A DNA stretch of 64,000 bases from a virus (lineage: Duplodnaviria > Heunggongvirae > Uroviricota > Caudoviricetes), in the IMG/VR virus record IMGVR_UViG_3300035698_011431, positions 1 through 64,000 of that record. The stretch is one strand, 5' to 3'. The first letter of the stretch is position 1; each line of letters starts with the position of its first letter. Positions 26,054 to 51,681 of this stretch are shown piece by piece. A program made the position numbers and the translations under genes. Below the pieces are notes generated by a model. It did not search any database and was not told where the DNA came from. It was given only the letters and a program-made list of their open reading frames with translations.

Positions 26054-26065
26054 TATACAAAAAAA

Positions 26066-26166
26066 TCTACTGTACAGGCTAGCGCTTTGGGAATATCCAT
26101 TTACGTGAACACCCCCCAAGTATTTGGCTATCTGGGAGATAATCTCTCAAAGCGCCGACCTTTACA
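26066..26166. ncRNA. long hairpin H2 (~25-bp stem ATCTACTGTACAGGCTAGCGCTTTG / CAAAGCGCCGACCTTTACAGTAGAT) flanked by A/T runs
   Basis: read directly. Confidence 0.4.
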
Positions 26167-26291
26167 GTAGATCAAATTTTTAACAATTTTCTCTATACTT
26201 GTGTTTAATTATAGACTTGTAAGTTATTTTTATTATACTAAAATATAGGAAAGAAGGATAGAATCATTTAAGAAATATAAAAGATACAAAA

Positions 26292-26783
26292 ATGGCAAAT
26301 TTCCAAAAAGCAAAAAATGAAGCAGAGAGGGTTATTGATCAGAATTATGTTAGTGATCTGCCGGTCAGAGTAGAAGATTTTGTAGTTAATTATGGTTATA
26401 TAGTCAAAAAAGCAGATTTACCTTCAAATATCGCCGGCTTTGTTAATATTGACGAAAAAGCTATATATGTAAATGATCATGATTCCCCTCAAAGGAAGGC
26501 TTTTACAATTGCACACGAATTGGGTCATATTGTTCTTCATAAGAAAGATTTGGAGTCTCAACCGGAGATTGGTGTTATGTATAGACGTCCACTTGGGCAA
26601 AAAGACCCAGATGAAAAAGAACAAGAGGCAAATTGCTTTGCTGCAAATTTATTAGTTCCTGAAAAACTTTTGAAAGAAGCAATAGCAGAATATAGTCTTG
26701 GCGATGACAATGCTGCATTAGCCAGGTTCTTCGCTGTTTCTAAAGAAGTTATTGGATATAGGCGAAAAGATTTGAATATATGA
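26292..26783 (+). CDS. ImmA/IrrE-family zinc metallopeptidase
   Basis: HELGHIVLH (HExxH) in a ~160-aa protein with the ImmA layout. Confidence 0.6.
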   Translation: MANFQKAKNEAERVIDQNYVSDLPVRVEDFVVNYGYIVKKADLPSNIAGFVNIDEKAIYVNDHDSPQRKAFTIAHELGHIVLHKKDLESQPEIGVMYRRPLGQKDPDEKEQEANCFAANLLVPEKLLKEAIAEYSLGDDNAALARFFAVSKEVIGYRRKDLNI

Positions 26784-26873
26784 AAAATAAGGATGTACAA
26801 ATAAATAAAGGAGATCCAACAAATATTTATCTAGACCTTATCTCTAAATGCCAACTAACATTAATATACAACA

Positions 26874-27224
26874 ATGAACAAAGACACTAAAAAAGAAATC
26901 AAAGAAGAGGTTAAAAAACAACTAGAGAAAGTTCTAGGGGATAATGAAGTTCTAATAATTGAAAAGGCTTCTAATGGCTATAAGATTAAGTGTATGGACT
27001 GGGAAAGAGATGAACCTAAAATGGTAGAAACATTGTTTAAGATAGAACATAATTATGATTCATACGATAGATCTAAAGAATATGATAAAAAAGAGAAAGA
27101 AGGAATTAGTGAGATGGTTAGTGAGATACTTTTTTGGATGGGGTATGACTGGGATAAATGGAGGAAAGATAACCCCGAATTAAAATGGGATAATGTAGGA
27201 GATCATTATGAAGGCAATGGATAA
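26874..27224 (+). CDS. hypothetical protein (W-rich C-terminus)
   Basis: 116-aa ORF. Confidence 0.35.
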   Translation: MNKDTKKEIKEEVKKQLEKVLGDNEVLIIEKASNGYKIKCMDWERDEPKMVETLFKIEHNYDSYDRSKEYDKKEKEGISEMVSEILFWMGYDWDKWRKDNPELKWDNVGDHYEGNG

Positions 27225-27241
27225 ATGGTGGGTTAATGTAG

Positions 27242-27313
27242 CCATCTTAACTCAATCGGCTAGAGGGCAGACTGTAAATCTGTTATTGCTTGGTTCGATT
27301 CCAAGAGGATGGA
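27242..27313 (+). tRNA. tRNA, anticodon GTA (Tyr) with an unusually short variable loop
   Basis: Hand-folded cloverleaf. Acceptor stem CCATCTT/AGGATGG with one G-U pair. D-arm CTCA...AGAG pairs 3 of 4. Anticodon stem GCAGA/TCTGT, loop CTGTAAA. T-arm CTTGG-TTCGATT-CCAAG. No encoded CCA. Confidence 0.5.
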
Positions 27314-27882
27314 CATTATATATAGAAGAAATTAAAATCCCTATATATAAAATCTCTAATGAGGTAAAGGGGATACAGAGTTATCCACACTCAAATTAAA
27401 TCGATACATACATGAATTTAGACGAACAACTAGAAGAATATAGAAGGCTAGTAGACAAACTAGCAGAAGAAGAACCTGAAGAGGTTGAACATATAATGGA
27501 TATTTTTAATGGTATAAATCCTTTTAAGGATAAGAAAACCCGAAAACAATGATCTAGCAGCATCTATCAACTCGTGAGCTATTAGATAGGTCGCTTGGGA
27601 CTATTAGATCAATTGCTTTTGGGGAATAGGGTGTTATAATAGAAATAGCTCAACTCAAGGACTTGACTTTCACGTCAAATAGTGTATAATAAAGAAGCTA
27701 GTAGGTGTTCGATTAAATTCGAATTAAATGCCGAACCTACAATAGGATTGAAATTTGAATAGAACGGGGGTACAGTTAGAAAGCTATAAATGGATGAGCT
27801 TGATGCTAGGTTTACGTACCCTCGTACCGAGTTCAAGCAAGTCCGTTTATAGCTTTTTATATGCCTAAATTATAATAAACAA

Positions 27883-28227
27883 ATGAAATTAACATCAAAA
27901 ATACGTTTAGATTATCATATAACTACTGAATCTTATAGTGTACACGATCCTGTAGAATCAAGAAGACATGATAGTGAGCGAATAGATTTATATATGGTCA
28001 GCTATAATTTCCATGGGGGAACTAATCTTCTAGAGGACATAGATATAAAGATCGCTATTAAAAAATTAATAGACTGGTTCTTTGATAATGGGATAGAAGA
28101 TTATACTATGGATAGTATGACGAAAACAACAGATCCTGGATTAAAACCTTTATTGGAGATACGAGGAGAATTTCAATGTCATGAATTACCGAAAGGGTTA
28201 GAACTCAATAGTTCTTTTAACAATTGA
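27883..28227 (+). CDS. hypothetical protein
   Basis: 114-aa ORF. Confidence 0.35.
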   Translation: MKLTSKIRLDYHITTESYSVHDPVESRRHDSERIDLYMVSYNFHGGTNLLEDIDIKIAIKKLIDWFFDNGIEDYTMDSMTKTTDPGLKPLLEIRGEFQCHELPKGLELNSSFNN

Positions 28228-28356
28228 GTGAGAGAGTGGCGGAATAGTAGACGCAAGTATTAGCGTGCTGTAGAGGGCGAAGATTATTTCATGTCCCTTA
28301 AAATCAAATCCATGGTTAATTATCTACATGCAAGGTCTTGTCCTTGCCTCTCTCCC
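28226..28356 (+). ncRNA. tRNA-like structured element A (GAGAGAG-TG-GCGGAATAGTAGACGC ... GCAAGGTCTTGTCCTTGC-CTCTCTC)
   Basis: acceptor-like 7-bp terminal pairing, D-arm-like and T-arm-like hairpins, ~75-nt insert at anticodon position. Confidence 0.45.
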
Positions 28357-28451
28357 TTAGTTTTTAAAACTAAACTCAAATTACTTGTCTTTCTTGAGTA
28401 TAAATAAATACAAAGGCACAGCTTTAACTAATTAGAATTAATATTAAATAA

Positions 28452-28937
<486 letters not shown>

Positions 28938-28953
28938 AATTAATATTAAATAG

Positions 28954-29190
28954 ATGGAATATAAGGTTGGCGATAATGTAAAAGTAATAAATACAAAGGT
29001 TCCCTATAGAGAGAATGGAAGTGAGGCTAAAATACTAGAAATTAATGATAAAGGGGATGGTATATCTGAAGATAATAATCGTAGATATGAAATCAAATTA
29101 ATATTTATTGATGACAACGTTATTGCGTTTTATTACCCAGGAGATTTAGAAGCTAACCCTTTACAAGAAACAATAAATAGAGTATATTAA
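28954..29190 (+). CDS. hypothetical protein
   Basis: 78-aa ORF. Confidence 0.3.
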   Translation: MEYKVGDNVKVINTKVPYRENGSEAKILEINDKGDGISEDNNRRYEIKLIFIDDNVIAFYYPGDLEANPLQETINRVY

Positions 29191-29373
29191 ATGTACAAAT
29201 ACCAGCTACAATGACAAAATAGAAGGCCAACGGTGGTCTTACTAGGATAAATAGATTTTCTATTTTGTCCGTAGCTGGACCTAGTAACTACCGTTGGCTT
29301 TTTTAGTATTCAAATTACTTACTCTTCTTGAATTAAAATAAATACAAGAGTATCGCTTTAACGCCACTGATTT

Positions 29374-29523
29374 ATCAATTGAATAGAGTAGAAGTGTATA
29401 GGACACGCCCGCTGGACCTGCGGGATGTGGCAAAACCTTGAAGCAATAGTTGGTCACGCGACAGGGATTTAAAGTTAGACATAACCACCGCAAGTAACTC
29501 CTTGCCTACTCTATTCAATTGAT
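29374..29523 (+). ncRNA. structured element C: 150-nt hairpin closed by a perfect 18-bp inverted repeat ATCAATTGAATAGAGTAG / CTACTCTATTCAATTGAT, with GCAAG-TAACTC-CTTGC before the 3' arm
   Basis: read directly. Confidence 0.45.
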
Positions 29524-29556
29524 AAACAAACGCTAAAGTTCTTTTATAAATTAAGT

Positions 29557-29666
29557 GAGAGAGCGATAAGTTAGTTCTTATATGAAAACAAGTCCCAGGT
29601 GGAAACTCTTCAGAGACAAATTCCTGGTGGAAACCCTTACAAGGTGCAAATCCTTGCCTCTCTCCC
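29557..29666 (+). ncRNA. tRNA-like structured element D (GAGAGAG ... CAAGG-TGCAAAT-CCTTG-CCTCTCTC; internal direct repeat CCAGGTGGAAAC)
   Basis: same 3' module and CCCTTAGTTTTTAAAAC tail as element A. Confidence 0.4.
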
Positions 29667-29883
29667 TTAGTTTTTAAAACATTTGCATTAAATACTAATT
29701 AAGGTTATAATATACTTAATTGAATAGAACTCCGATGCCAAACGGAGAATAAACTGATACACGAATGAGAACGTTGTTTTTAACGACGATCCTAATCCTT
29801 ACATATTTGGCAAAAGTGTGTATCGATTTGGATTAGGAGCCGTTAAAAGTAACGTTTTTTTTATATTCTAATAAATAAAAATA

Positions 29884-30732
29884 ATGACAGGGGTCATGTC
29901 TGAAGGTTATGGAATCTTACCTAAAAAGATTCTAAAAGATAAAGAATTATCGAGTACAGCAAAACTTTTATATGTTCTTATAAGTTCATTAACTGCTAAA
30001 ACAGGATATTGTTATGCAAATAATAAATACTTGGGAAAAGAAATGGGCATTAGTGAAGTACAAGTATCGAACACCATTAAAAGGCTAGGCAAATACCTAG
30101 TAATTGAAGATCCAAAGTCTCATAAAAGGATAATCAACCTTAAAGAAAACTTTAAGGAACCACAAAGAAAACTTAAAGGTTCCTTAAAGAAAACTTTAAG
30201 GAACCACAAAGAAAACTTTAAACATAATAGTATAAGTAATAATAGTATAAAAGAAGAAGAAGGAAATTCTCCTTCTTTGGAAGAACCCACATACGTAACA
30301 GATAGAACGAGCATAAAGGAAAGTATTGGTGTATTAAAGGCGCAATTAGGGGAGAAAGCTATACAAACGGCTGATAACTATAAGCCAGACCATGATCCAC
30401 CTAACAAGCACAAGAAAAGGAGAAGCCGTTCCGAGTTACAATTATGTTATGACTATTTGTTAAGGGAAGGAGCGAGATTATTTAAGATAGAGGGGTGGAA
30501 TCCAGGACCGCAACGAAAAGCTATTCGGGCGATAATAGACAGATATCCTGATAAGTCAATTGAATATTTTAAAAAAGAAATAATAGACAGGGCAAACAAA
30601 ATGATTGAAGCTGGTTGGGTAGATGTATATGATTTTTCTAATCTAAATATACACTGGCACAAATTTGGAGAACAAAAGGTTGTTGGCAATACAACTGAAT
30701 TAAAGACAGCAGAGGAACTTCTAAAAAATTAA
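29884..30732 (+). CDS. replication initiator / replisome organiser (N-terminal HTH), containing a 36-bp x2 DNA direct repeat (ori candidate)
   Basis: The N-terminus LPKKILKDKELSSTAKLLYVLISSLT...GYCYANNKYLGKEMGISEVQVSNTIKRL is typical of phage initiators. The gene lies directly upstream of DnaB. Perfect direct repeats occur at 30139-30174 and 30183-30218. Confidence 0.5.
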   Translation: MTGVMSEGYGILPKKILKDKELSSTAKLLYVLISSLTAKTGYCYANNKYLGKEMGISEVQVSNTIKRLGKYLVIEDPKSHKRIINLKENFKEPQRKLKGSLKKTLRNHKENFKHNSISNNSIKEEEGNSPSLEEPTYVTDRTSIKESIGVLKAQLGEKAIQTADNYKPDHDPPNKHKKRRSRSELQLCYDYLLREGARLFKIEGWNPGPQRKAIRAIIDRYPDKSIEYFKKEIIDRANKMIEAGWVDVYDFSNLNIHWHKFGEQKVVGNTTELKTAEELLKN

Positions 30733-30748
30733 AATATAATTTAATTTA

Positions 30749-32053
30749 ATGATCAAACAGATAAACGAAATTCCAAAATGTATTGAGACGGAAAAAGCGT
30801 TGTTGGGATGTCTAATGAATAATCCCCAAGAAGTTATAACACAAGTAAATGATCAAATAACTTTTGATGATTTCTGGGATATTACATACAAGAATATATA
30901 TAAGTCTGCTGAGTTTATTTATAAAAGAGATGGGAGTGTAGACATAGCGGTATTAAGAGAGAATACAAATATCAAGGCAACCGTATTGGCAAGCATATTA
31001 AATTATCCTTTTTCTTTAACTGAGATTCAAGATTATATCAAGAGGATAAAGAACGCTTCTAACCTTAGAAAGTTAATAAATGCAGGGGCAAAGATACAAG
31101 AATTGGGGAAATCGGAAGGGGACATAGATAATATCTTACAAGAAGGGACAAAGTTATTGTCAGATATTGACTACAAAGAGAATGACAGGCAGAAGAACAT
31201 GAATGAGATGTTAACGAATGCAATGCAAAGATATGAGGACAGGGTAAAGAATAAGGGAATGATTGGGATACCAAGTGGCTTTATAGATCTAGATAAATTG
31301 ATACACGGATTTAAGGAAAGCACTATGACGGTAGTAGCAGCAAGACCAAGTGTAGGGAAAACATCTTTTGTCTTAGACATGATTAGAAATATGATTAAAA
31401 AAGGATATTCGGCAATAATATTTAGTTTAGAGCAAAGTTATGAGGAGCTTATCGATAAACTTATATGTGCGGAAGGGGATATAGATCTTTGGAGAATGAG
31501 GGGTGGGAAAATAAATGAAGAAGTTGAAGGACAATATTCGGAAGCCCTTGGGATACTAGGGGATTGTAAATTAATTATAGATGACAGTAGTGCTATAACT
31601 CCAAATCATATTCGAACTACCTTGAAACAACAAATGGAGAGGCAGAAAATAGATATAATAGTAATTGATTATTTAGGATTGATGATGGCTGGATATAAGA
31701 CAAATAATATAACAGAAGAGATAACAAGGATTTCTCAGCAACTAAAATCAATATCAAAAGAGTTTAGGATTCCAGTGATTGTTATTTCTCAATTGAGTAG
31801 GAATATAGAACAACGGGGAGACAAGATGCCTAGATTATCAGATCTTAGAGATTCGGGATCGATCGAACAGGATGCTGATATAGTAATGTTTATTACAAGG
31901 GAATTTCAAAAACCAGAGGGTCAAGATTTATTTGATGTTGATATACAGATCCTCAAACATCGTGCAGGACCGATAGGGTTAGCACAATTATTATTTGATC
32001 CAAGCACTACAAGCTTCAAGAATAAAGTAAAACATGATGGTCCTTCATTTTAG
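30749..32053 (+). CDS. dnaB: replicative DNA helicase, DnaB family
   Basis: 434 aa; Walker A ARPSVGKTSFVLDM, the motifs IIDYLGLM and SQLSR, and a DnaB N-terminal domain. Confidence 0.8.
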   Translation: MIKQINEIPKCIETEKALLGCLMNNPQEVITQVNDQITFDDFWDITYKNIYKSAEFIYKRDGSVDIAVLRENTNIKATVLASILNYPFSLTEIQDYIKRIKNASNLRKLINAGAKIQELGKSEGDIDNILQEGTKLLSDIDYKENDRQKNMNEMLTNAMQRYEDRVKNKGMIGIPSGFIDLDKLIHGFKESTMTVVAARPSVGKTSFVLDMIRNMIKKGYSAIIFSLEQSYEELIDKLICAEGDIDLWRMRGGKINEEVEGQYSEALGILGDCKLIIDDSSAITPNHIRTTLKQQMERQKIDIIVIDYLGLMMAGYKTNNITEEITRISQQLKSISKEFRIPVIVISQLSRNIEQRGDKMPRLSDLRDSGSIEQDADIVMFITREFQKPEGQDLFDVDIQILKHRAGPIGLAQLLFDPSTTSFKNKVKHDGPSF

Positions 32054-32401
32054 GAATTAATTAAACAGGTAAGGAAACATGACTAAAGGAGAATATATTG
32101 AATGGACAAAAGAACTAGCAGGGTTTTGTAGATGGTTTCAAAAGAAATATAACACAGAATCTTTTCATTTAGGGAAATTTGAGAGAGGGGAATATTTTAT
32201 AGTTAGTCCTGTATTGGATAAATTAGTAGCAAATAGAGGGAAGAGATGGCCAGGGGATAATATAATAAAGATAAAAGAATTCAAAAAACAAGCACCTGTT
32301 TTAATATAAAATAAATCAATTTTTTTCCAAAGTTTTTCAAACGGTAAAATGAACGACCTAAGACACCGCATGGATAGTAGAGATACAGCCCTTTAAAATA
32401 T

Positions 32402-32430
32402 TTGACATTGTTTTCTCTTTGGTATATACT
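32402..32430 (+). promoter_or_regulatory. sigma70-like promoter TTGACA-17-TATACT with conserved leader TCATAATCAATTAA...CAAATG
   Basis: near-identical promoter+leader also at 54430-54488; same promoter core at 33224-33252. Confidence 0.5.
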
Positions 32431-32460
32431 TAATTCATAATCAATTAAATAAAAAAACAA

Positions 32461-32922
32461 ATGACTAGAGGTACGGGTTATATAATACAAGGGGATAAAA
32501 AAGGAAAGATTAAAATGTGGCAAACATGCGAATTTAATGGAGATATGTATAGGGAAAAAGAACATGGACATGGGGATAAATTCCTAAAAATGTTATCTAA
32601 AGTGGACGGTAAAGATAGTTTATTACAAATGGCTAAAGATTTTGACAAAGAAGAAGGGTTTGATTATCAAGAAAATTATAAAAATCATTTTAAAATATCA
32701 GAACTTAAGATTAAAGAATTAGAAGAACTTGAAATAGACTTTAACATAGATTATTTCGAAAGATTCTTTTCAGACTGGGTTTTTATAAAAAACACGACGT
32801 CTCTGAATTTCAAATTAATTACTGAAGACAATAAAAAGATCTTTTTACATAAAGAAGAAAGCATAGCTTTAAATTTTGGGAATATTGAGGGTCATTATAA
32901 AATAAAAGCTTCAAACCTATGA
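32461..32922 (+). CDS. hypothetical protein
   Basis: 153-aa ORF downstream of promoter. Confidence 0.4.
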   Translation: MTRGTGYIIQGDKKGKIKMWQTCEFNGDMYREKEHGHGDKFLKMLSKVDGKDSLLQMAKDFDKEEGFDYQENYKNHFKISELKIKELEELEIDFNIDYFERFFSDWVFIKNTTSLNFKLITEDNKKIFLHKEESIALNFGNIEGHYKIKASNL

Positions 32923-33227
32923 TAACTAAAGAACAGATATCACAACAGATTCAAGCATTAGATGAGAAATATTGTGGGGATGGAATACCAGCCTTAGAGA
33001 TATATCAAGCATTTGAATGGGAAAGGAACAGACAGATGGTACAAGTTAAGAAATTACAGGATAATTTGTGGAGGGATAAAATGGAAAAGTTGGAACTAGA
33101 GCATCGAATTCAATTATTAGTAGAAGAGATTGATGAGTTGAAAAATGGGGTGGATACCGAACCGAAAACAACGGAAGAACTAATGGACGATGAGTCATCT
33201 CAATCAATATCGAATAAGAATGTTTGA
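32919..33227 (+). CDS. hypothetical coiled-coil protein
   Basis: 102-aa ORF. Confidence 0.35.
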   Translation: MITKEQISQQIQALDEKYCGDGIPALEIYQAFEWERNRQMVQVKKLQDNLWRDKMEKLELEHRIQLLVEEIDELKNGVDTEPKTTEELMDDESSQSISNKNV

Positions 33228-33252
33228 CATTATTACCCCTTTGGTATATACT
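33224..33252 (+). promoter_or_regulatory. sigma70-like promoter TTGACA-17-TATACT (second copy of the CTTTGGTATATACT core)
   Basis: read directly. Confidence 0.45.
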
Positions 33253-33682
33253 GTATATAGATAAGGTTAATCTAGATCACCTAGCGAGCTTCCGCAGTTC
33301 GAGGATAAAACAAAAGATTAATCGGGTAACAACTCTATAATTAAAATAAACAAACATGGTTACATTTCAAGAGTTAATGGCAAAGATGGTAGAGAGGGGA
33401 AAACTTTCTAAAGAAGGAGCAGATTGGATGACAATAGAATTAAGAAAAGCAGAAGCAATAGAGAGATTAAAAATCTTGAAAAAGAAAAGAGTTCATTTAG
33501 AACAATGGGAGCAAAAAGCGGAATGGGATGGAAATGTATTAGTATTGGATAGGTTGACGTAGGTGAGGTGTTAATCAAAAAGAGGTATGAAATATCAACT
33601 TCGGCATTAAAGCCTCGCTAACATTATCGTACGAGCTAGAAACGTATAATAAGTATAACTTATAATTAAGAAAATGAAACAA

Positions 33683-33859
33683 TGAACTTTAGATTTAATA
33701 AAAAGGATAAAGAGAAATTGGTAGGAGTGAGATTGAATTTGAAGGATTGGAACGAGCTAAATGAGATTGCAAAAAACGAAAAGGCTACTTTAGCTGAGAT
33801 AATAAGAGTATTTATTGAAGAAGCAAAAGAGGAATATAATAATTTAGATAAATAACATA
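33683..33859 (+). CDS. small ribbon-helix-helix (CopG/Arc-like) DNA-binding protein, 58 aa
   Basis: MNFRFNKKDKEKLVGVRLNLKDWNELNEIAKNEKATLAEIIR: beta-strand then two helices; below ORF-track cutoff. Confidence 0.35.
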
Positions 33860-35021
33860 ATGAATAATCAAGATTAAAAACTTAGCTTGCAGGAGACAAA
33901 TATTAAATTAACAAAAATTGTTTAGTTGTTGTTGTTATTATTAGAATGTTTGTTCTATCCTAGACCCTTAGACCTCCTGCAAGTTAATTCTTTAATTAAT
34001 AAACAAATGACAGACAAACTACTAAGAGGATATTTCAAAGCAAACATGATAATAATACCTCCATTATGTTTAGTGGGATTTATTATATCAGTTCAGGGAG
34101 ATATGATATGGGAAGGGATAGTATTATTATTGATAGCGGTAGGGCATTTCTTCATTTCAAAATCATTATATAATAATATAGATAAGATATGAACATCATA
34201 AAAAGGCTAGAAAGAACAATCAATTCAGAGGTAATATTCTGTTGGAATAAAAAGATCAACTTAGAGACAGCAAAGAAAATAACCAAAATACAAAAAAAGA
34301 TAAAAGAGATATTACCAGAGGGATGGAATTATGAATATCATACAAACAAAACTAATTATACAGAGCATATAATTGAGAAGAAAGACGGGAGTTTAATTGA
34401 TATATTACATAACACAGAAAAAACATGAACATAAAAAGAGAGGACGCATATCCTAACATAACAGACTTAGCACGCGCACAATTAAGCAAATCAGATAAAC
34501 AGCCTATAAGAATGGATATAAACAAGCAATTAAAGATTTTAAAAGGAAGTTCCTTGAAGATAAAAGGGATGATCTGTATTTAACTACAAAAAAAATGTTA
34601 GAAAATAAAACAATGAAAAAGAGAATAGAATTTCTAGTAAATTATAAGCCTCCTATATCTAAACTGGGAAAGGAAATGGTTGGCGTACTTAGTCGCATGG
34701 ATCTAGGGATAAGTGGTGTAGAGTTACCACCAACAACAGAGAACTGGAGCTGGTCAACTACCGAGAAGGTGGATAATGAATATATTAAGAAGATGAAAGG
34801 AGTAATTCAAGAAGCTATCAATAGCCAAGGTGGTGAATTAATAAAAGTAAACTATTTACAATGACACTCCATCAAAAGTTAGTTAACAGAGCCTACGCAA
34901 ACAAAAGGCTCACCAAAAGAGAATATAGTAATCTATTAAAAGTAATAGATAAAGGAGACCTAGGGAGTGAGCAAGAATTTAAGATGATAGTTAACAAAAT
35001 TAATAGATAATAACATTGATA

Positions 35022-35199
35022 ATTAGAGTTTTATGGAGTAGTGGCGGAATAGTAGACGCATATATGAAGCGGATTCCAGTATAGTTACACTGTGGCGCAA
35101 CGGTAGCGCTTAGGGGTTTTCCCCTGCGGTTGTAGGTTCGAGTCCTACCAGTATGTAACATGCAAGGTCTTGTCCTTGCCTACTCCATTAAGCTCTAAT
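35022..35199 (+). ncRNA. tRNA-like structured element B: long terminal stem ATTAGAG..GGAGTAG / CTACTCC..CTCTAAT, A-type D-arm and T-arm modules, and a nested second cloverleaf-like insert (D-arm GCGC-AACGGTA-GCGC, T-arm GTAGG-TTCGAGT-CCTAC)
   Basis: read directly; anticodon-equivalent region of inner unit is a 4-nt-loop hairpin AGGGG-TTTT-CCCCT. Confidence 0.45.
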
Positions 35200-35251
35200 C
35201 ATCACAAAAACAAAAAAAACATGAATTATAATATAAAATTAATAAATAGAC

Positions 35252-35539
35252 ATGAAAGAATTAAGATTAGAGTTAAAAGTTGGGGAAGTTTTTACAAAAG
35301 AAAAGTCTGATAAGCTCATGGAATATATTAGAATACTTATTGATGGAGAGCGAAACTTATGGAAGCCTATAAGTAAAAAGAAGAGTTTATTGTTTAAGGA
35401 TAGATTGCTTAATTTTATGTTGAATAATGACACAAATGAAATGTCGTTAAGGGAGATTAGTAGGGCAGTTGGTGCAAAATATCCACAGAAGACGAAACAC
35501 CACCTTAATCGGCTTCATAAAGCAGGGTTAATAAAATAG
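35252..35539 (+). CDS. hypothetical protein, possible winged-helix DNA binding
   Basis: 95 aa, basic C-terminus KTKHHLNRLHKAGLIK. Confidence 0.3.
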   Translation: MKELRLELKVGEVFTKEKSDKLMEYIRILIDGERNLWKPISKKKSLLFKDRLLNFMLNNDTNEMSLREISRAVGAKYPQKTKHHLNRLHKAGLIK

Positions 35540-35569
35540 TAATAAAATTAATAATTAATAAATAATAAG

Positions 35570-36229
35570 ATGGATAAATATAAATTAACAGAAAACAAAA
35601 GAGAAGTATTTGGAATAACATTATTCCAAATAGAAGCATGTATTTCGTTTGGTAGTATTAACAAGGGAGAAAGAGGTGGATGGATAGAGAAGGAAGAAAA
35701 CTTGTCACAGGAGGGAGACGCAAGGGTTTCTGAAAACGCATGGGTTTATGGAGACGCAAGGGTTTATGGAAACGCAAGGGTTTATGGAAACGCAAGGGTT
35801 TCTGAAAACGCAAGGGTTTATGGAGACGCACAGGTTTATGGAAACGCAAGGGTTTCTGAAAACGCAAGGGTTTATGGAGACGCACAGGTTTATGGAGACG
35901 CAAGGGTTTATGGAGACGCAAGGGTTTATGGATACGCATGGGTTTCTGAAAACGCACAGGTTTATGGATACGCAAGGGTTTATGGAAACGCAAGGGTTTA
36001 TGGAAACGCAAGGATTTCTGGAAAGATAAAATTATTGGCAGGATTTTTCTTCGAGATGAGAAATAACAAAGAAGATATTAATTATAAAGAGGTAGATGAA
36101 GAAACGGAATTGATATATAAAGGGGATGCTAAGTTTGGTGAAGAAGAAGATGGTGAGGTTGAGATAAAAGTAGAAGGAAAAACAGTGAAGATAAGTCGTA
36201 AAAGTGCAAAAGCACTAAACTTGATTTAA
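35570..36229 (+). CDS. hexapeptide-repeat protein: ~16 tandem copies of (G-[DN]-A-[RQW]-V-[YS]), beta-helix candidate
   Basis: 18-bp DNA tandem repeat GGARACGCAMRGGTTTMT from ~35712 to 36012 inside the ORF. Confidence 0.5.
   Translation: MDKYKLTENKREVFGITLFQIEACISFGSINKGERGGWIEKEENLSQEGDARVSENAWVYGDARVYGNARVYGNARVSENARVYGDAQVYGNARVSENARVYGDAQVYGDARVYGDARVYGYAWVSENAQVYGYARVYGNARVYGNARISGKIKLLAGFFFEMRNNKEDINYKEVDEETELIYKGDAKFGEEEDGEVEIKVEGKTVKISRKSAKALNLI
35712..36012 (+). repeat. 18-bp tandem repeat x ~16.5
   Basis: read directly; generates spurious antisense and off-frame ORFs (35658..36011 -, 35748..36029 +). Confidence 0.85.
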
Positions 36230-36266
36230 CAAAATTAATAAATAATAAACAAAAATAACATTGATA

Positions 36267-36365
36267 ATTAGAGTTTTATGGAGTAGACCTGCGCAGGCCA
36301 TGGTAAAGCTATACTACGAGCGTAGCGAGCAAGTTCGAACCTTGCATGCTCCATTAAGCTCTAAT
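36267..36365 (+). ncRNA. tRNA-like structured element E (same 5' flank as B: ATTAGAGTTTTATGGAGTAG; canonical T-arm GCAAG-TTCGAAC-CTTGC; 3' ATGCTCCATTAAGCTCTAAT)
   Basis: read directly. Confidence 0.4.
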
Positions 36366-36419
36366 TATTACAAAAACAAAGGTTCAAAAATACTAATATA
36401 TGAACTACTAGATAGTTAG

Positions 36420-37184
36420 TTGGTATTATACGAACCACAAAAAAATATGTATAAAATTAAACATACGAGTATTAGTAATTTAAATAGACAGAACAAGAAA
36501 CGTCTTAAAAGAAAAAAAGAAAGTAAAACCCTAGCATTAACAGCAATAGCTACAATGCTAATTGTATTCATAGCATTAAAAGGAATAGACAAAATAAATG
36601 ATTATCAGAATAAGGTCATTGAAGACGGATTACAAAGAACAATGGATAGAGAAGAAAGCCGAAGGAATGTATCCGAAATTAATGAAGCAATCGTATATGC
36701 TGAAGAAGTATATCAAGAGGTACAGGAGCGAAAACGTATTGAAGAAGCTAAAAGAATCGAAGATGAAAGGCTTGAAAAGATACGTAAGGAAGCTGAAGAG
36801 AAAGCTAAGATTGAGGCGGCTAAACTTAAAGTTAGGGAAGAACAGGCGTCTAGGATTAAACTTGCAAAGGTAAAAAAGAAAACAGTACCTAAAGCGGTTA
36901 GTGGAAATATTCCCCAAATTATAAAGGATGCTAGTCGAAAATACGGAGTGAGTTATAATTTGATGATGAGAATAGCTAGATGTGAAAGTTCATTGAATCC
37001 GAGAGCTTTTAATGGAAAGAATAAGAACGGGACATGGGATGCGGGATTATTTCAGTTCAATTCTTGCCATGGGATTTCAAAAGAGAGGTTATTTGATCCT
37101 TATTATAATGCAAACTTAGCAGCAAGCTGGTTGAAAAATGGGACTAGCCCTTGGAATGCAAGTAAGCATTGCTGGAATAAATAA
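36420..37184 (+). CDS. membrane-anchored lytic transglycosylase (SLT domain) with coiled-coil linker
   Basis: N-terminal TM, then C-terminal RIARCESSLNPRAFNGKN...DAGLFQFNS (catalytic Glu-Ser and GLxQ motifs of SLT). Confidence 0.6.
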   Translation: MVLYEPQKNMYKIKHTSISNLNRQNKKRLKRKKESKTLALTAIATMLIVFIALKGIDKINDYQNKVIEDGLQRTMDREESRRNVSEINEAIVYAEEVYQEVQERKRIEEAKRIEDERLEKIRKEAEEKAKIEAAKLKVREEQASRIKLAKVKKKTVPKAVSGNIPQIIKDASRKYGVSYNLMMRIARCESSLNPRAFNGKNKNGTWDAGLFQFNSCHGISKERLFDPYYNANLAASWLKNGTSPWNASKHCWNK

Positions 37185-37207
37185 TATATAATTAAGTAAC
37201 AAAGAAG

Positions 37208-37717
37208 ATGTTTGGCATAAAATCAGCGAGTAGACAGATAAGTGCAAATACAAGACAAGCGGGAATGGATATTGAAGAGTCAATTGACACTGGAGCAGTG
37301 CAAGTATCTAGTGCTATTAATAAGCAAACCAAATCAATTGATAAACAAACCGAGGTAATGGAAGAGGGGGGTAGGGAAATAGCGTTAGCTATCTTAGATT
37401 CCTCTTGTTCAAATAAAGTTATTGAAGATTTATACGAGCTAATTTCGCAAGCTAAAAAAATAGAGCACAGTTCTTGGATGTCGTCTAATTATAGGGAGAA
37501 AAGAAATACATATACTGTCAATATACAAGATGTTCAGATAATTCTTAGTATATTTAGTTACCTTAATGTGCCAGGGTATACTTTAACTATGGAGATAGAA
37601 GATGAAAAGATTGACCTGACATTAAGGACACCATACCAAAACAAATGTATCTTAAACGCAATCAAAAGGAAGAAAGGAGCATTGGATATTAGGGAGAAAA
37701 TAACACAACCCAAGTAG
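37208..37717 (+). CDS. hypothetical protein
   Basis: 169-aa ORF. Confidence 0.35.
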   Translation: MFGIKSASRQISANTRQAGMDIEESIDTGAVQVSSAINKQTKSIDKQTEVMEEGGREIALAILDSSCSNKVIEDLYELISQAKKIEHSSWMSSNYREKRNTYTVNIQDVQIILSIFSYLNVPGYTLTMEIEDEKIDLTLRTPYQNKCILNAIKRKKGALDIREKITQPK

Positions 37718-39109
37718 TAAACTAATATATAATTAGTAATAAATAGATGAAAGTAAAATACGAAAGTCCTAAATATAAAGTTGGAGATATAGTAATATGT
37801 GGAACTGAGAATCCATATATGACTAAAATCATTTATGCAAGGTACGAGAATGGGAGTTGGCACTATTTTCTAGAGACGTTAAAGGAAGGTAGAGCAACAG
37901 GTTTGAATATACCTATGGTGGTATTTGATAATGGGATTCTAGAGAGAGTATCGTAGGTTTTAACTAATAATAAAAAGATGAGTAGTTATGAAAAGTTAAG
38001 GGATATAATAATAGAATACTTTGATTTACGAGAAGAGGGTGTTCCCAAAAAAATGAGAAAGAAGACGAAGCGGATGAGAGAACTTAAACATATTACGTTG
38101 CCATTAGTTTTGCAGTTTTTAGAAATGGAGAAGATTGCAGTGTTAAACTATTCTTATAGAGAGGGTTATGTGTTTTACGATAGCAAGGGAAGTCATCTTA
38201 ATATTGGTTGGGAGATGCTAAGCGATGACAATAGGGAGCTTACGTTACAAGATCAGTCCGTAGAGTTTATGGATAACGTATTATACTTAATGAACAAAGG
38301 TAATATATAATTAATAAGGTATATAGAATTAAAAGATAAGATAATTATATACAAAGAAAAAAAGATAACGAACTTTGATATATTAAAATTAATAAAATGA
38401 AAACATGCAACAAACAACGGCAATAATGTTACAAGAAGACGAGTTAAAATTAATACTTGAATCTTTAAATGAGAATGAGACGCATGCAACCAATAATATT
38501 TATAAATCGAGAAGGATAGAAGCATTGAAAGTTATTATAAAACAAACAATTAAATGTTTTTGAACGGTCTACGATTCAAGTTCAAAGGTAATATATAATT
38601 AGTAATAAATAGATGAAATATAAACTAGGAAAAAACGTACAAAAAGGTGATAAAATTTTGTTAGCAGGGAAATGGTATCAGATAGAAGAAAAGCTTGATG
38701 GATGTGTAAGTGTAGATAATGGCGGACAAGTTGCTTATGGAGAAGAAATTGAAGGTTGGAAACGTAGAGGAATGGATACTGAGGAGTATCTAGAGTTTAC
38801 CAGGTCAACTGAAAGAGTTATGAAGTATCTATACGATTATCATAATCCACACACAATAATTACCATAAATTGTAACTCTGCGGAAATCTTAGGAGGGCAA
38901 AGGATGCACAAAACAAATAAATATATAAAAGATTGATTAATAGGATGGATATTTAAGGCGATCTATGAAATACTCGGAGATTAAAGTAATGAGAGGGAGG
39001 AAATACGAGAAAAGATTGCTAAATTGGAGAAAGAATTAAACGCAAGGGATGTTCATTATTAGACGACTCAAGTAGTAAGGTAATAAATAATTAAAATTAA
39101 GAAAAAAAT

Positions 39110-40860: not shown

Positions 40861-42137
40861 ATAGGCACAGCAATATTTATTTTGGAATAATTAATAATAA
40901 TAAAAAACATGGAGAAAATAAAAGGATGGAGAAACCAATATGATAAAGACTTTGATGACGTTGGGCGTGTAATAGTATTTGAAAAGTTTATTCAAGGGAT
41001 AGGATTTGGATTTACACCAGCACATGCAAAAGAACATATTAAAGAAAAAGAAGAGAGATATAATAAGGAAATAGCAGCAATGAAAGAAGCGTTTGAATTA
41101 TGGAAACAAGAATTTAAAAGCTAACAAATAATAGATAGATGAAAATAGTAAAAAGTAAGCATCGAGGGTTAGTTCATCAAAGAGCAAGTTGTCTTGAGTG
41201 TGATTGGATGAATGAAGAATATATTGATTGTGAGGCCAGAAAGGAGGCAAAGAAACACGTATTGAGGACAGGGCATAGGGTACAACTGGAAAGTGGTATT
41301 ATGCGACAATATTATTTAATAAATAGCTAACAAATAAATAAAATGGATATAGAGAAAATAAAAGAAAATATAGAACTTGTTATTAAAAAGTTAAAGTATA
41401 TGAATGAGAAAGATGCGGTGCTTCAAGAAAAGATAATATTTATGGGCATAGATGATTTAATAGGAATCCTAACCTTTCGACAAAAAGAGAAGCTAAAAGA
41501 GATATCAGAAAAGATAGATTCTATGATTACGGATCAAGGCACTGAATTCAGTCTAGGTTACGATCAGGCCATAGTAGAAATTCGAGCTTTAAAACTATTA
41601 AATAAATAAAACATGAACAAAAAAGAAGAGATTAAGGCGGCAATTAGAATCCAGTTCAAACAAGCAGTAAATGAGGCATGGGCTAATGGAGCAGACAGAG
41701 TTATTGTTTTACCATCAGCTGAAAAAAGAGAGAAGAATATTTGTGATTTAATAGATGAATTAATAAATGAAACAGATACTCCCAAAAAAAAGAATTAAGA
41801 AAGAATCACTATTGATAAAGATAATAATGTGGATAATAATAGTTCCATTATCTATAATAATAGCGGTTCCAATCACAGTAGTAGTTACTATTTATTTAAT
41901 TAGATTTGCATTTACATGAGGAGGACAATAAATTGGATAATAGTAAGATATAAGATATTGAAATTGCGCATAACCATTAGAAGATTAAAGAGGAAAGGAA
42001 TTTTAAAATAAATATGAGGGGGTAGCTATTCCCTTACCAAGGGCATAGCTAGGAACAAATCTTACAAAGGTTTGTGGAGGTTCAAATCCTTCACCCTTTC
42101 GTCAAACAGCACATTACAAAAGGAGGTGAGATTTCTT

Positions 42138-48292: not shown

Positions 48293-48302
48293 GAATATTT
48301 AA

Positions 48303-51676: not shown

Positions 51677-51681
51677 AAACT

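What the first reader, a model, noticed from the sequence alone, without database searches (positions are those of the whole stretch)
35022..35199. Element B: a tRNA-like shell enclosing a second cloverleaf with canonical D and T arms but no anticodon arm
Inside the A/B-type shell (acceptor GGAGTAG/CTACTCC extended to ~20 bp by ATTAGAG.../...CTCTAAT) lies a 72-nt unit. It has acceptor TACACTG/CAGTATG, 'TG' and D-arm GCGC-AACGGTA-GCGC. It then has a 22-nt segment of exactly the right length for position 26 plus anticodon arm plus variable loop, and T-arm GTAGG-TTCGAGT-CCTAC. The anticodon-arm slot can only form AGGGG-TTTT-CCCCT (a 4-nt loop), so it cannot decode. A nested, non-decoding tRNA mimic is unusual. 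It may be a tRNA-derived decoy, such as a bait for anticodon nucleases or a ligand for the RNA-repair/Ro proteins.
Basis: seen in the sequence. Interest (0 to 1): 0.65.

Follow-up and report, generated by a model that had tools for sequence, protein, structure and literature searches.

The report
Nested tRNA-like RNA in phage
This is a real, strongly folded phage RNA gene in which a tRNA-Leu-derived outer frame encloses a second tRNA-shaped body that cannot read codons, and the outer frame belongs to a large family of phage RNAs (also present in model phages SPP1 and phi3T) that I could not find in Rfam 15 or in the papers I searched.

Summary
Window 35022-35199 folds into a 20-bp closing helix, a tRNA-Leu-type D arm, a small hairpin, a complete inner cloverleaf (35086-35156) and a T-like arm. 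ARAGORN calls the inner unit with a 2-base anticodon, and Rfam tRNA scores it 40.3 bits.

The inner unit keeps the conserved elbow nucleotides. Its anticodon loop has 6 nt (GUUUUC, closable to a UUUU tetraloop), so it is not a normal decoder.

The new result concerns the outer shell. It is a divergent member (49 bits, E about 5e-11) of a large family in phages and prophages, whose identifiable hosts are Firmicutes. Members have a 7-bp acceptor, UG, a D arm GCGGAAUAG(G)UAGACGC identical to that of genuine phage tRNA-Leu genes, 0-200 nt of variable cargo and a T arm. No CCA is encoded. Covariation is strong (98% of cells paired, 15 of 16 pairs with double changes).

The family has no Rfam 15 model and is unannotated in every cultured-phage record examined. 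Eight literature searches found no description. None of about 105 other shells carries a nested tRNA.

The Ro60 gene in this window has its own YrlA-like RNA beside it, so B is probably not the Ro ligand. Function is unknown. My best guess is a stable, non-decoding tRNA mimic.

The parts
35022..35041 (+). 5' strand of the 20-position closing helix. The last 7 nt (35035-35041, GGAGTAG) are the acceptor-like 5' strand of the shell.
   Evidence: Sequence, MFE fold, inverted repeat I3. The identical 33-nt stretch 35009-35041 recurs at 36254-36286.
35042..35060 (+). U8-G9, the shell D arm GCG-GAAUAGUAGA-CGC (35044-35059) and A26. The sequence is that of a tRNA-Leu D arm.
   Evidence: The 19-mer GTGGCGGAATAGTAGACGC occurs in 59 IMG/VR contigs, one of them a normal tRNA-Leu(CAG). 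The R1 alignment covers it.
35061..35083 (+). Hairpin in the anticodon-arm position of the shell: stem UAUAU/GUAUA around a 13-nt loop that can form an internal GAA/UUC helix. It is not an anticodon loop.
   Evidence: MFE fold.
35086..35156 (+). Inner cloverleaf (the cargo, in the variable-arm position of the shell). Acceptor TACACTG/CAGTATG; D arm 35095-35109; anticodon-like arm 35111-35126 with 6-nt loop GUUUUC; variable loop 35127-35131; T arm 35132-35148; position 73 is U.
   Evidence: ARAGORN (labelled 'tRNA-?(Lys|Lys)(tt)'). Rfam tRNA 40.3 bits with alignment. MFE fold.
35162..35179 (+). Shell T-like arm GCAAGG-UCUUGU-CCUUGC: the 6-bp stem of the family with a deviant 6-nt loop.
   Evidence: R1 alignment. 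Identical to the arm of E1 at 28326-28349.
35180..35199 (+). 3' strand of the closing helix. CTACTCC (35180-35186) is the acceptor-like 3' strand. A35187 sits at the discriminator position but is paired in the extended helix.
28230..28354 (+). E1, a second shell of the same family in the window. It has the same D and T arms as B, an acceptor GAGAGAG/CTCTCTC (four compensatory pair changes relative to B) and an unrelated 74-nt cargo.
   Evidence: R1 55.8 bits, E 7.8e-13. Sequence.
29557..29664 (+). E3, a weaker family member. It uses the same acceptor frame as E1 and has the consensus T arm CAAGG-UGCAAAU-CCUUG, but its D arm is replaced by another hairpin.
   Evidence: R1 29.5 bits, E 8.7e-6. 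Sequence.
36264..36368 (+). E5, which has the same closing helix and flanks as B around a different 60-nt cargo with a canonical T arm GCAAG-UUCGAAC-CUUGC. It is not matched by R1.
   Evidence: blastn, sequence, fold z = -3.7, inverted repeat I17.
29371..29526 (+). E2: a 21-bp perfect closing helix ending in GAGTAG/CTACTC, a T-like hairpin GCAAG-UAACUC-CUUGC and a 100-nt cargo. It is not matched by R1.
   Evidence: Sequence, fold z = -6.7, inverted repeat I5.

Best explanation
Element B is a composite, non-decoding RNA gene derived from tRNAs.

Anatomy:
- The outer part is a divergent member of a large family of phage RNAs derived from the top half of tRNA-Leu (7-bp acceptor, U8-G9, Leu-type D arm, T arm). 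In this family the anticodon and variable region is replaced by a variable cargo domain.
- In B the cargo is a small hairpin plus a nearly complete second tRNA body. The loop of that body is shortened to GUUUUC and can close to a tetraloop.
- The acceptor of B is prolonged to a 20-position helix, so the RNA has no free tRNA-type ends until it is processed.

Proposed mechanism:
1. It is transcribed on the + strand together with the early and replication genes.
2. It folds into a multi-way junction.
3. It is excised at the long helix, or remains as a stable structured block.
4. It acts as a tRNA-shaped molecule that tRNA-handling or tRNA-targeting proteins bind but cannot use for decoding.

The role I consider most likely is a decoy or competitor in the conflict over tRNA damage. 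The same genome also carries a kinase-phosphatase, two RNA ligases, a tRNA-Tyr and a Ro60/YrlA pair.

Shown: sequence, fold, family membership, covariation of the frame, and non-canonical loops.
Inferred: transcription, processing, the binding partner and the decoy role.
For: Inner cloverleaf and fold:
- The inner cloverleaf is called by two independent tRNA finders.
- The MFE fold contains all the parts, z = -3.85.

Family membership:
- A covariance model R1, built from 40 shells of other phages, hits 35035-35186 at 49.0 bits, E 5e-11. It hits E1 at 55.8 bits.

The family is real:
- Among 96 unique loci chosen only by a T-arm 17-mer, 72 have the Leu-type D motif upstream. Of these, 61 show 7/7 acceptor pairing, against 2.4% in a partner-swapped control.
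- On 117 distinct sequences, 98.1% of cells are paired and 15 of 16 pairs have double changes. With partners slid, pairing is 32-50%.
- The D arm is identical to that of genuine phage tRNA-Leu genes.

Within the window:
- B and E1 share D and T arms but differ by four compensated acceptor pairs.
- B and E5 share the frame but not the cargo.
- The window encodes an Rnl1-like ligase, PNKP, a second RNA ligase and TROVE/Ro60.

Orientation: in the recurrent neighbour-gene clusters of family loci (ArpU-like, HNH, TerS), the flanking genes lie on the same strand as the shell.

Indirect expression evidence: in a Listeria phage, a shell lies directly 3' of the region matched by the sRNA family rliG. 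rliG is expressed in lysogeny (PMC7397523).
Against: - No expression or processing data exist for this window.
- The only other copy of B found is an identical metagenome fragment, so the inner cloverleaf has no comparative support.
- B's shell T loop (UCUUGU) lacks the T-loop motif that is conserved in the family.
- The inner acceptor has a mismatch. Both features would also fit decay.
- None of about 105 other shells has a nested tRNA, so the nesting could be a recent accident.
- The family discriminator is A in only about 58% of members, and most members have a free 7-bp acceptor whereas B does not. B may therefore not be handled like its relatives.
- Nothing links B specifically to an anticodon nuclease.
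- R1 also gives genuine tRNA-Leu genes 30-41 bits, so the 49-bit score is not far above the score of the ancestor.
Confidence: 0.45

Rival explanations
1. Evolutionary debris. A tRNA gene, already damaged or later damaged, recombined into the variable region of a shell or of a tRNA-Leu gene. The nested arrangement has no function of its own. At most, the shell still works.
For: - The inner unit has a 6-nt loop, a C.A mismatch and a U.G pair in the acceptor.
- The shell T loop is degenerate.
- There are no diverged orthologues.
- Nested tRNAs are absent from the other shells.
- Shells often sit in tRNA arrays, where such recombination is plausible.
- Fragments of T arms occur in 3 of 95 cargos.
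Against: - All conserved elbow nucleotides and all four helices of the inner unit are intact.
- The loop change is the kind that closes the loop rather than a random lesion.
- The whole element is much more stable than shuffles.
- A 20-position closing helix is kept in two copies with different cargos.
Confidence: 0.2
2. The shell is mainly a processing and stabilising scaffold, a natural counterpart of engineered tRNA scaffolds. RNase P, RNase Z or RNase III cut at the frame. The inner cloverleaf is then released by RNase P/Z as a separate small tRNA-like RNA, or the cuts split the shell into two paired halves.
For: - The 7-bp acceptor length is strict and unextended in most family members (81 of 98 with at most 1 extra pair).
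- The elbow nucleotides are conserved.
- Cargo varies from 0 to about 200 nt.
- In L040 a type II hammerhead lies immediately 5' of a shell.
- M. smegmatis YrlA is cut by RNase P and receives CCA in vivo (PMC4201824), which is a precedent.
Against: - In B both acceptors are extended by flanking pairs (+13 for the shell, about +3 for the inner unit). From general knowledge of RNase P and RNase Z, this disfavours cleavage.
- No CCA is encoded.
- A scaffold role does not say what the cargo does.
Confidence: 0.2
3. B is a second Y RNA, bound by the phage Ro60 protein in the manner of D. radiodurans Yrn1. Yrn1 has tRNA-order D, anticodon-like and T arms, a 6-nt 'anticodon loop' and ends that form a long helix.
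For: - The window encodes TROVE plus Ro60 vWA domains.
- Chen et al. 2014 describe Yrn1 with a 6-nt loop and state that all three characterised species have at least two Y RNAs.
- B has a long terminal helix.
Against: - A YrlA-like RNA lies directly upstream of the Ro60 gene, with a further hairpin at 57173-57261.
- B is 22 kb away.
- B gets no Rfam YrlA or Y_RNA hit even at E up to 10.
- The motif GNCGAAN0-1G is absent from B. It is also absent from the window's own YrlA-like region, so this point is weak.
- Other phage loci with shells showed no Ro60 in the DNA held.
Confidence: 0.08
4. The inner unit is a working tRNA with an unusual 6-nt loop, for example a doublet-reading or frameshift-promoting tRNA related to tRNA-Lys(UUU). 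It would be matured out of the shell.
For: - ARAGORN reads a 2-base anticodon 'tt' and guesses Lys.
- The score is above the Rfam gathering score.
Against: - There is no purine at position 37.
- Positions 32 and 38 are G and C and can pair, leaving a tetraloop.
- The acceptor has a mismatch.
- The flanks extend the acceptor helix.
- No CCA is encoded.
- No isotype-specific similarity was found to 274 phage tRNAs.
Confidence: 0.03
5. The element acts at the DNA level, as an attachment or recombination site or as origin-like repeats, or it is merely an RNase III or terminator-type punctuation hairpin between genes.
For: - There are long inverted repeats with conserved flanks in several copies.
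- The location is intergenic, in a replication-module region.
- From memory, B. subtilis RNase III processes phage SP82 early transcripts at long intergenic hairpins.
Against: - Compensatory changes that keep pairing but not sequence, across about 100 family members and between B and E1, point to RNA structure.
- The internal tRNA-type arms are unnecessary for a DNA site or for a plain hairpin.
- There is no T-run after the helix.
Confidence: 0.04

Closest known systems
Bacterial and phage Y RNAs with tRNA-like domains (YrlA, Rfam RF02553; D. radiodurans Yrn1)
   Same: - They are non-decoding tRNA mimics with conserved D and T arms and a long helix formed by the two RNA ends.
- Yrn1 has the normal arm order and a 6-nt 'anticodon loop' (PMC4201824), like B's inner unit.
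- They occur together with RNA-repair genes.
   Different: - In YrlA the domain is circularly permuted (T arm, closed acceptor hairpin, D arm).
- YrlA lies next to the Ro60 gene. This window has exactly such an RNA at 57259-57400.
- B is not permuted, is 22 kb from the Ro60 gene, lacks the Ro-binding motif and gets no Rfam hit.
- B has two tRNA-like layers.
Genuine type II tRNA-Leu of phages
   Same: - The D arm and U8-G9 are identical.
- Both have a 7-bp acceptor.
- A is the most common discriminator.
- Both have a T arm.
- R1 gives real tRNA-Leu genes 30-41 bits.
   Different: - The shells have no anticodon arm with a Leu anticodon.
- Their interior is 0-200 nt of non-homologous sequence.
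- Most have a 6-bp T stem and G at position 55 (UGCAAAU).
- ARAGORN and the Rfam tRNA model do not call them.
Phage T4 stable RNAs species 1 and 2 (rnaC, rnaD)
   Same: - They are small stable RNAs of unknown function encoded inside a phage tRNA cluster.
- rnaC ends in a canonical T arm (CCGGG-TTCGAAT-CCCGG) followed by an acceptor-like 3' strand.
   Different: - They have no Leu-type D arm.
- R1 scores rnaC only 14.2 bits, below T4's own tRNA-Ser and tRNA-Leu.
- The host is a proteobacterium.
- Nothing is nested inside them.
tmRNA tRNA-like domain
   Same: An acceptor plus T arm frame the two ends of a larger RNA whose interior is not a tRNA.
   Different: - tmRNA has a degenerate D region, a G3.U70 alanine identity element, pseudoknots and a tag reading frame.
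- ARAGORN found no tmRNA in the window.
- The shell keeps a full D arm and has short, non-conserved cargo.
Listeria sRNA rliG (Rfam RF02415) and the phage ncRNA neighbourhood (ROOL, drum, mcrA motif)
   Same: - They share the genomic niche.
- In Listeria phage LP-LmcIH1-8 the rliG match ends where the shell begins. The shell is followed by the mcrA motif and lies downstream of the LmaC gene.
- In Brochothrix phage ADU4 two shells lie beside ROOL, drum and tRNAs.
   Different: - The Rfam rliG model covers the upstream leader, not the shell.
- ROOL and drum are unrelated folds.
Engineered tRNA scaffolds for recombinant RNA (Ponchon and Dardel; cited from memory)
   Same: A tRNA frame with the anticodon region replaced by an arbitrary structured RNA, giving tRNA-like processing and stability.
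   Different: - That is a laboratory design based on tRNA-Lys or tRNA-Met.
- Here the arrangement is natural, Leu-derived and of unknown purpose.

Membership tests
Canonical tRNA (Rfam RF00005): inner unit 35086-35156 | Cloverleaf with acceptor, D, anticodon and T arms, scoring at or above the Rfam gathering score | tested here: met
   40.3 bits against a gathering score of 29, model positions 1-71. ARAGORN also calls it.
Canonical tRNA (Rfam RF00005): inner unit 35086-35156 | 7-nt anticodon loop with U33 and a purine at position 37 | tested here: not met
   The loop is GUUUUC (6 nt) and its G and C can pair to leave UUUU. No register gives a 5-bp stem with a 7-nt loop (direct inspection of the sequence).
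Canonical tRNA (Rfam RF00005): inner unit 35086-35156 | Fully paired 7-bp acceptor with free ends and a 3' CCA, encoded or added | tested here: inconclusive
   There are 5 Watson-Crick pairs, one U.G and one C.A mismatch. The flanks GUU/AAC extend the helix. No CCA is encoded. Processing and CCA addition cannot be tested here.
   GGAGTAG/CTACTCC pairs 7 of 7, and the 19-mer is matched exactly.
   The stem GCAAGG/CCUUGC matches the consensus, but the loop is UCUUGU (6 nt) and lacks the U54-A58 and C56 pattern. E1 has the same deviation.
   49.0 bits, E 5.1e-11 in the window and 7.2e-10 in 0.9 Mb. The family range is 43-90 bits, and real tRNA-Leu genes score 30-41.
   B is extended by 13 positions. 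81 of 98 members have at most 1 extra pair. L052 (+8) and L199 (+15) are like B.
Y RNA / YrlA (Rfam RF02553) | Encoded next to the Ro60 (TROVE) gene | tested here: not met
   B is 22 kb upstream of 57442-58845. A YrlA-like RNA occupies the adjacent position.
Y RNA / YrlA (Rfam RF02553) | Ro-binding helix with the motif GNCGAAN0-1G in the 5' strand | tested here: not met
   The motif does not occur in 35022-35199. It is also absent from the window's own YrlA-like region, which has GUUGYAA instead, so this test is weak.
Y RNA / YrlA (Rfam RF02553) | Match to the Rfam covariance model, with the permuted order T arm, acceptor hairpin, D arm | tested here: not met
   There is no YrlA or Y_RNA match at E up to 10 in 34800-35400. 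The arm order in B is the normal tRNA order.
Y RNA / YrlA (Rfam RF02553) | Physical binding by Ro60 | not testable with these tools
   This needs immunoprecipitation or a gel shift.
tmRNA | tRNA-like ends, a tag reading frame and pseudoknots, detectable by ARAGORN or Rfam | tested here: not met
   ARAGORN and Rfam found no tmRNA in the window.

The most novel reading that the evidence does not exclude
The shell is the founding example of an undescribed, widespread class of phage RNAs. Known hosts are Firmicutes, and members include SPP1, phi3T and Listeria, Lactobacillus, Enterococcus and Brochothrix phages. The class would be natural 'tRNA scaffolds': tRNA-Leu top halves that the host tRNA machinery recognises and matures (RNase P and RNase Z, CCA addition, perhaps even leucylation, because LeuRS needs neither the anticodon nor the variable arm). 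They would display exchangeable cargo domains. Element B shows that the cargo can itself be a tRNA body with a sealed UUUU loop. That would make B a two-headed tRNA mimic used against tRNA-targeting host defences.
Probability: 0.3. Interest if true: 0.85.

Novelty: new variant of a known kind. Interest (0 to 1): 0.68.

Why it matters
tRNA mimics such as tmRNA, Y RNAs, viral tRNA-like structures and mascRNA have each revealed a distinct piece of biology.

This family has well over a hundred distinct members in the sample alone, with textbook covariation. It sits in phages that have been studied for fifty years (SPP1, phi3T, Listeria A118-type prophages). It is unannotated in every cultured-phage record examined, has no Rfam 15 model, and was not described in any paper my searches returned.

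If it is matured or charged like a tRNA, it would be a new way for phages to use, or to jam, the host tRNA machinery. This would be directly testable in Bacillus subtilis.

Element B itself is the only member found with a whole second cloverleaf inside. It lies in a genome loaded with tRNA-repair genes, a Ro60/YrlA pair and several further tRNA-like RNAs. That makes this genome a good place to ask what non-decoding tRNA shapes are for.

If B turns out to be a decayed recombinant, the family still stands.

Tried and rejected
Searches for relatives of the window:
- megablast of 26000-38000 and blastn of 35000-35220 against 50,697 phage records found no match.
- The exact 19-mer of B's closing helix in IMG/VR gave one chance hit inside a giant-virus contig.
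- A pattern for the inner D arm plus loop in IMG/VR gave nothing.
- The single metagenome scan returned only a 2.2-kb fragment identical to the window (L063). No covariation test of the inner cloverleaf was therefore possible.

Rfam: gathering and E-value modes on the window and on 22 family loci gave no family for the shell.

Promoter and terminator scan of 27800-36600: 46 promoter-like sites against 40.7 expected, and no terminator after B. This was not informative.

Nested tRNAs in other shells: none by ARAGORN in 98 + 7 unique shells. T-arm-like hairpins occur in 3 of 95 cargos against 0.5 expected.

Isotype of the inner unit: no phage tRNA among 274 is notably similar.

T4 rnaC and rnaD as members: rejected, 14 bits.

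Ro-binding motif: absent from B. One match in E1 is within chance, given 10 matches in the window.

Co-occurrence of shells with RNA-repair genes in the fetched loci: only 3 weak cases (PNKP in L014 and L030, Rnl1 in L050) and no Ro60. The flanks held are short.

Leucylation idea: weakened, because the discriminator is A in only about 58% of members.

DNA-level att site idea: rejected because of the compensatory changes.

Eight literature searches found no description of the family. The SPP1 re-annotation paper does not mention it.
Full report
**1. The observation**

- Positions 35022-35041 (ATTAGAGTTTTATGGAGTAG) pair with 35180-35199 (CTACTCCATTAAGCTCTAAT). There are 20 positions with one U.U mismatch. 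The repeat finder extends this to 25 nt at 88% complementarity.
- Inside the helix come, in order:
  - UG and GCG-GAAUAGUAGA-CGC (35042-35059);
  - a small hairpin (35061-35083);
  - a 71-nt cloverleaf (35086-35156);
  - GCAAGG-UCUUGU-CCUUGC (35162-35179).
- ARAGORN calls the cloverleaf as a tRNA with a two-base anticodon 'tt'.
- The Rfam tRNA model gives it 40.3 bits against a gathering score of 29, full length.
- The minimum-free-energy fold of 35022-35199 contains the outer helix, both shell arms and all four arms of the inner unit. Energy is -65.5 kcal/mol, z = -3.85, with none of 200 dinucleotide shuffles as stable (my re-run gave z = -4.6).

This is much more than chance. I make three small corrections.

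- The inner unit is 71 nt.
- Its acceptor TACACTG/CAGTATG contains a C.A mismatch and a U.G pair.
- In the register that keeps a 5-nt variable loop, the anticodon stem is UAGGG/CCCUG with a 6-nt loop GUUUUC.

Otherwise U8, A14, G18G19, U54-U55-C56 and A58 are all in place.

**2. What the shell is**

The window holds other copies of parts of the shell.

- E1 (28230-28354) has the same D arm and T arm as B. Its acceptor is GAGAGAG/CTCTCTC, against GGAGTAG/CTACTCC in B. That is four positions changed on both strands with pairing kept. Its interior is unrelated.
- E5 (36264-36368) has B's closing helix and flanks around a different cargo.
- E2 and E3 (29371-29526 and 29557-29664) use the same two frames again.

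The shell's first 26 nt read like the 5' part of a type II tRNA-Leu. I therefore scanned IMG/VR for the 19-mer GTGGCGGAATAGTAGACGC.

- 59 contigs hold it.
- Only one of them is an ordinary tRNA-Leu(CAG).
- In nearly all the rest, the motif is preceded by 7 nt whose complement follows a T arm 60-200 nt downstream.
- A subclass carries an insertion inside the T loop.

A second scan used a common T arm, CAAGGTGCAAATCCTTG.

That second set was chosen without reference to the 5' side, so it gives an unbiased test.

- Of 96 unique loci, 72 have the D motif.
- Of those 72, 61 show perfect 7/7 acceptor pairing.
- When the 3' strands are swapped between loci, the figure is 2.4%.
- The perfectly paired loci use 32 different acceptor sequences.

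D stems also covary: GCG/CGC, GUG/CAC, ACG/CGU and AUG/CAU.

I built a covariance model (R1) from 40 non-redundant members. None of them came from the window.

- In the window it finds E1 at 55.8 bits, B's shell at 49.0 bits (E 5e-11), E3 at 29.5 bits and a weak tRNA-like candidate at 42016-42100.
- In 100 sources it finds 118 matches.
- On that alignment 98.1% of cells are paired and 15 of 16 pairs have changes on both sides. With partners slid by 1-3 columns, pairing is 32-50%. The alignment is fitted to the model, so one search is the cleaner test.
- Real tRNA-Leu genes score 30-41 bits with R1.
- The D arm is literally that of genuine phage tRNA-Leu(UAA/CAA/CAG) genes.

The family is therefore a tRNA-Leu derivative.

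**3. Properties of the family**

- Length runs from 51 to 320 nt, with a median of 122.
- The shortest members have essentially no cargo and consist of acceptor, D arm and T arm only (L079, L090).
- Cargos are not alignable between members.
- No CCA is encoded, and the discriminator is A in about 58% of members.
- Most members have a 6-bp T stem and a T loop UGCAAAU, with G at position 55.
- In 81 of 98 members the acceptor helix is not extended by the flanks, as in a true tRNA precursor. B (+13), L052 (+8) and L199 (+15) are exceptions.
- Hosts identified in reference genomes are Firmicutes: Paenibacillus, Bacillus, Clostridia, Lachnospiraceae, Enterococcus and Leuconostoc.

Members occur, unannotated, in several cultured phages.

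- SPP1, between genes 9 and 11.
- phi3T, after yonN.
- Listeria A118-type phages.
- Lactobacillus phage ATCC 8014-B2.
- Brochothrix phage ADU4, with two copies next to ROOL, drum and tRNAs.
- Enterococcus and Leuconostoc phages.

In temperate phages, the recurrent neighbours on the same strand are an ArpU-like late regulator upstream and HNH endonuclease and small terminase downstream. In lytic phages the shells lie in tRNA and ncRNA islands. In one case a type II hammerhead abuts the 5' end.

Rfam 15 has no model for the family at gathering or permissive thresholds. In a Listeria phage the Rfam rliG match ends exactly where the shell starts. rliG is a prophage sRNA expressed during lysogeny and is dispensable for plaque formation (PMC7397523).

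Eight full-text searches found no description of the family. The SPP1 re-annotation paper (PMC6316719) does not mention it. I cannot exclude a description in literature that the library does not hold.

**4. What is special about B**

In the geometry of a type II tRNA, the hairpin 35061-83 occupies the anticodon-arm position and the inner cloverleaf occupies the variable-arm position.

- None of 98 + 7 other unique shells contains a tRNA call.
- Three of 95 cargos contain a T-arm-like hairpin, against 0.5 expected. tRNA fragments in cargos therefore recur, but whole cloverleaves do not.
- B's shell deviates from the family in its T loop (UCUUGU) and in its extended helix.
- B has no diverged orthologue in the collections I could scan. 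The only other copy is an identical metagenome fragment. The inner unit thus rests on single-sequence evidence.
- Its origin by isotype is unclear. ARAGORN guesses Lys from the UU core.

**5. Context in the window**

The window looks like a phage genome of 33% G+C.

- B lies among small + strand genes, between a replication module and a lysozyme-like gene. The replication module has an initiator and a DnaB-like helicase.
- Further along are an Rnl1-type RNA ligase, a kinase-phosphatase (PNKP) and a second RNA ligase at 46405-49430. A TROVE/Ro60 protein lies at 57442-58845.
- A 7-deazaguanine pathway (QueD, QueE, QueC, FolE) is also present.
- Directly upstream of the Ro60 gene lies a YrlA-type permuted tRNA-like RNA, made of:
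  - a T arm GTTGG-TTCAATT-CCAAC;
  - a closed acceptor hairpin;
  - a D arm GCTC-AGTGGTA-GAGC;
  - a long terminal helix.
- That YrlA-type RNA folds with z = -6.3 and scores 42.8 bits with Rfam YrlA, below the gathering score of 69.

So the Ro60 protein has its expected partner next door. B gets no such hit and lacks the published Ro motif. That motif is also absent from the local YrlA-like RNA, so the argument from the motif is weak and the argument from position is the stronger one.

Chen et al. 2014 describe D. radiodurans Yrn1 as having tRNA-order arms and a 6-nt 'anticodon loop'. This is the closest published analogue of B's inner unit, and it keeps the Ro idea alive at low probability.

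**6. How it most likely works**

What is shown:
- a transcribable + strand element with a very stable fold;
- a frame under RNA-level selection;
- a cargo that keeps every tRNA tertiary-contact nucleotide but has a sealed, shortened loop;
- no encoded CCA.

What I infer: the RNA is made with the neighbouring genes and is either kept as a block or cut at the long helix. It then presents one or two tRNA elbows to proteins that recognise tRNA shape, without being usable in decoding.

I commit to a decoy or competitor role in the tRNA-damage conflict as the single most likely function, at roughly one chance in four. The reason is the gene company it keeps: PNKP, two ligases, a lone tRNA-Tyr, and Ro60/YrlA.

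The main rivals are:
- a scaffold or processing role, with the cargo released;
- plain decay of a recombinant tRNA;
- a second Y RNA.

The structural and family statements I hold at about 0.9. The combined statement, including mechanism, I put at 0.45.

**7. Comparison and novelty**

B works like a tRNA mimic of the Y RNA, tmRNA or T4 species-1 kind, but it is a member of none of them.

- YrlA fails on position, topology, motif and model.
- tmRNA is not detected.
- T4 rnaC scores 14 bits with R1.

B is a member of the shell family by model score, acceptor and D arm. It is an atypical member in its T loop and its helix extension.

tRNA mimicry is a known kind of thing. This Leu-derived, cargo-bearing frame and the nested cloverleaf appear to be undescribed. 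I therefore rate it a new variant of a known kind, with fairly high interest that rests mainly on the family.

Noticed in passing
window 57259-57400 (+): A YrlA-type Y RNA candidate lies directly upstream of the TROVE/Ro60 gene. It has a T arm, a closed acceptor hairpin with a UUCG loop, a D arm and a long terminal helix. Fold z = -6.3. Rfam YrlA scores it 42.8 bits, below the gathering score of 69, so the gathering-threshold scan of the window did not list it.
   Followed up: yes
window 57173-57261 (+): A second hairpin lies just upstream of the YrlA-like RNA (20-nt arms, 90% complementary). It shares the box AAGAGGTTGTAATATA / AAAGGGTTGCAATATA with the YrlA-like RNA. It may be a YrlB-like second Y RNA, and the box may be the local Ro-binding sequence.
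   Followed up: partly
window 46405-49430 and 57442-59625 (+): An RNA-repair style gene set is present: T4 Rnl1-like RNA ligase, PNKP kinase-phosphatase, a second RNA ligase with a PHA02142 OB domain, Ro60 (TROVE plus vWA) and a TerD-domain protein.
   Followed up: partly
window 50256-54403 (+): There is a ParB-N protein, an unassigned 302-aa protein, then QueD (PTPS), a radical-SAM QueE-like protein, QueC and GTP cyclohydrolase I. This is a 7-deazaguanine pathway, presumably for DNA or tRNA modification.
   Followed up: partly
window 28230-28354, 29371-29526, 29557-29664, 36264-36368, 42016-42100 (+): Five further framed tRNA-like elements. E1 and E3 share one frame (AGTGAGAGAG...CTCTCTCCCTTAGTTTTTAAAAC). 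B, E5 and E2 share another (GAGTAG...CTACTC with long extensions). Cargos differ, as if cassettes were exchanged between constant frames. 42016-42100 is an uncalled 85-nt tRNA-like fold with a T arm GGAGG-UUCAAAU-CCUUC.
   Followed up: partly
window 25954-26052, 26065-26172, 27777-27859, 29203-29306, 29700-29866, 33873-33996 (+): Several other intergenic long-helix structures, some ending in T runs. They include nested or pseudoknot-like stems just upstream of the replication initiator gene. This genome is unusually rich in structured non-coding regions.
   Followed up: no
window 27242-27314 (+): tRNA-Tyr(GUA) is the only canonical tRNA found in the 64-kb window.
   Followed up: no
L003, L016, L024, L041, L043, L054 and the 'ATATAAG' group (L010, L014, L028, L029, L032, L045, L049, L050): A subclass of shells has a helix inserted inside the T loop: GCGAGG-UG[ACUAUACGAG...CUCGU]CAAAU-CCUCGC, followed by the acceptor 3' strand. 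The T loop UGCAAAU is split between G55 and C56.
   Followed up: partly
L040 3557-3746 (-): A type II hammerhead ribozyme (Rfam, 42.7 bits) ends immediately 5' of a shell. This suggests that its 5' end is generated by self-cleavage there.
   Followed up: no
L211 (phage SPP1) 1496-1604 and 1620-1670: SPP1 carries a shell (80.6 bits) between genes 9 and 11. It overlaps the annotated minus-strand 'gene 10', which the record itself flags as being in conflict with its translation. The shell is followed by a mini tRNA-like hairpin (T arm CCGGG-UUCAAUU-CCCGG inside the stem ACGGAC/GUCCGU) and a T run.
   Followed up: partly
L212 (Listeria phage LP-LmcIH1-8) 1338-1824: The Rfam rliG match (160 bits) stops at the first base of a shell. 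The 3' third of the rliG model is replaced by the shell, and an mcrA RNA motif follows. rliG-type transcripts in some Listeria prophages probably include a shell.
   Followed up: partly
L060 (Brochothrix phage ADU4) 991-2934: A dense ncRNA island holds ROOL, a tRNA, drum, two shells (2297-2418 and 2497-2680) and then tRNA-Met and tRNA-Lys. The record annotates small hypothetical ORFs over most of it.
   Followed up: no
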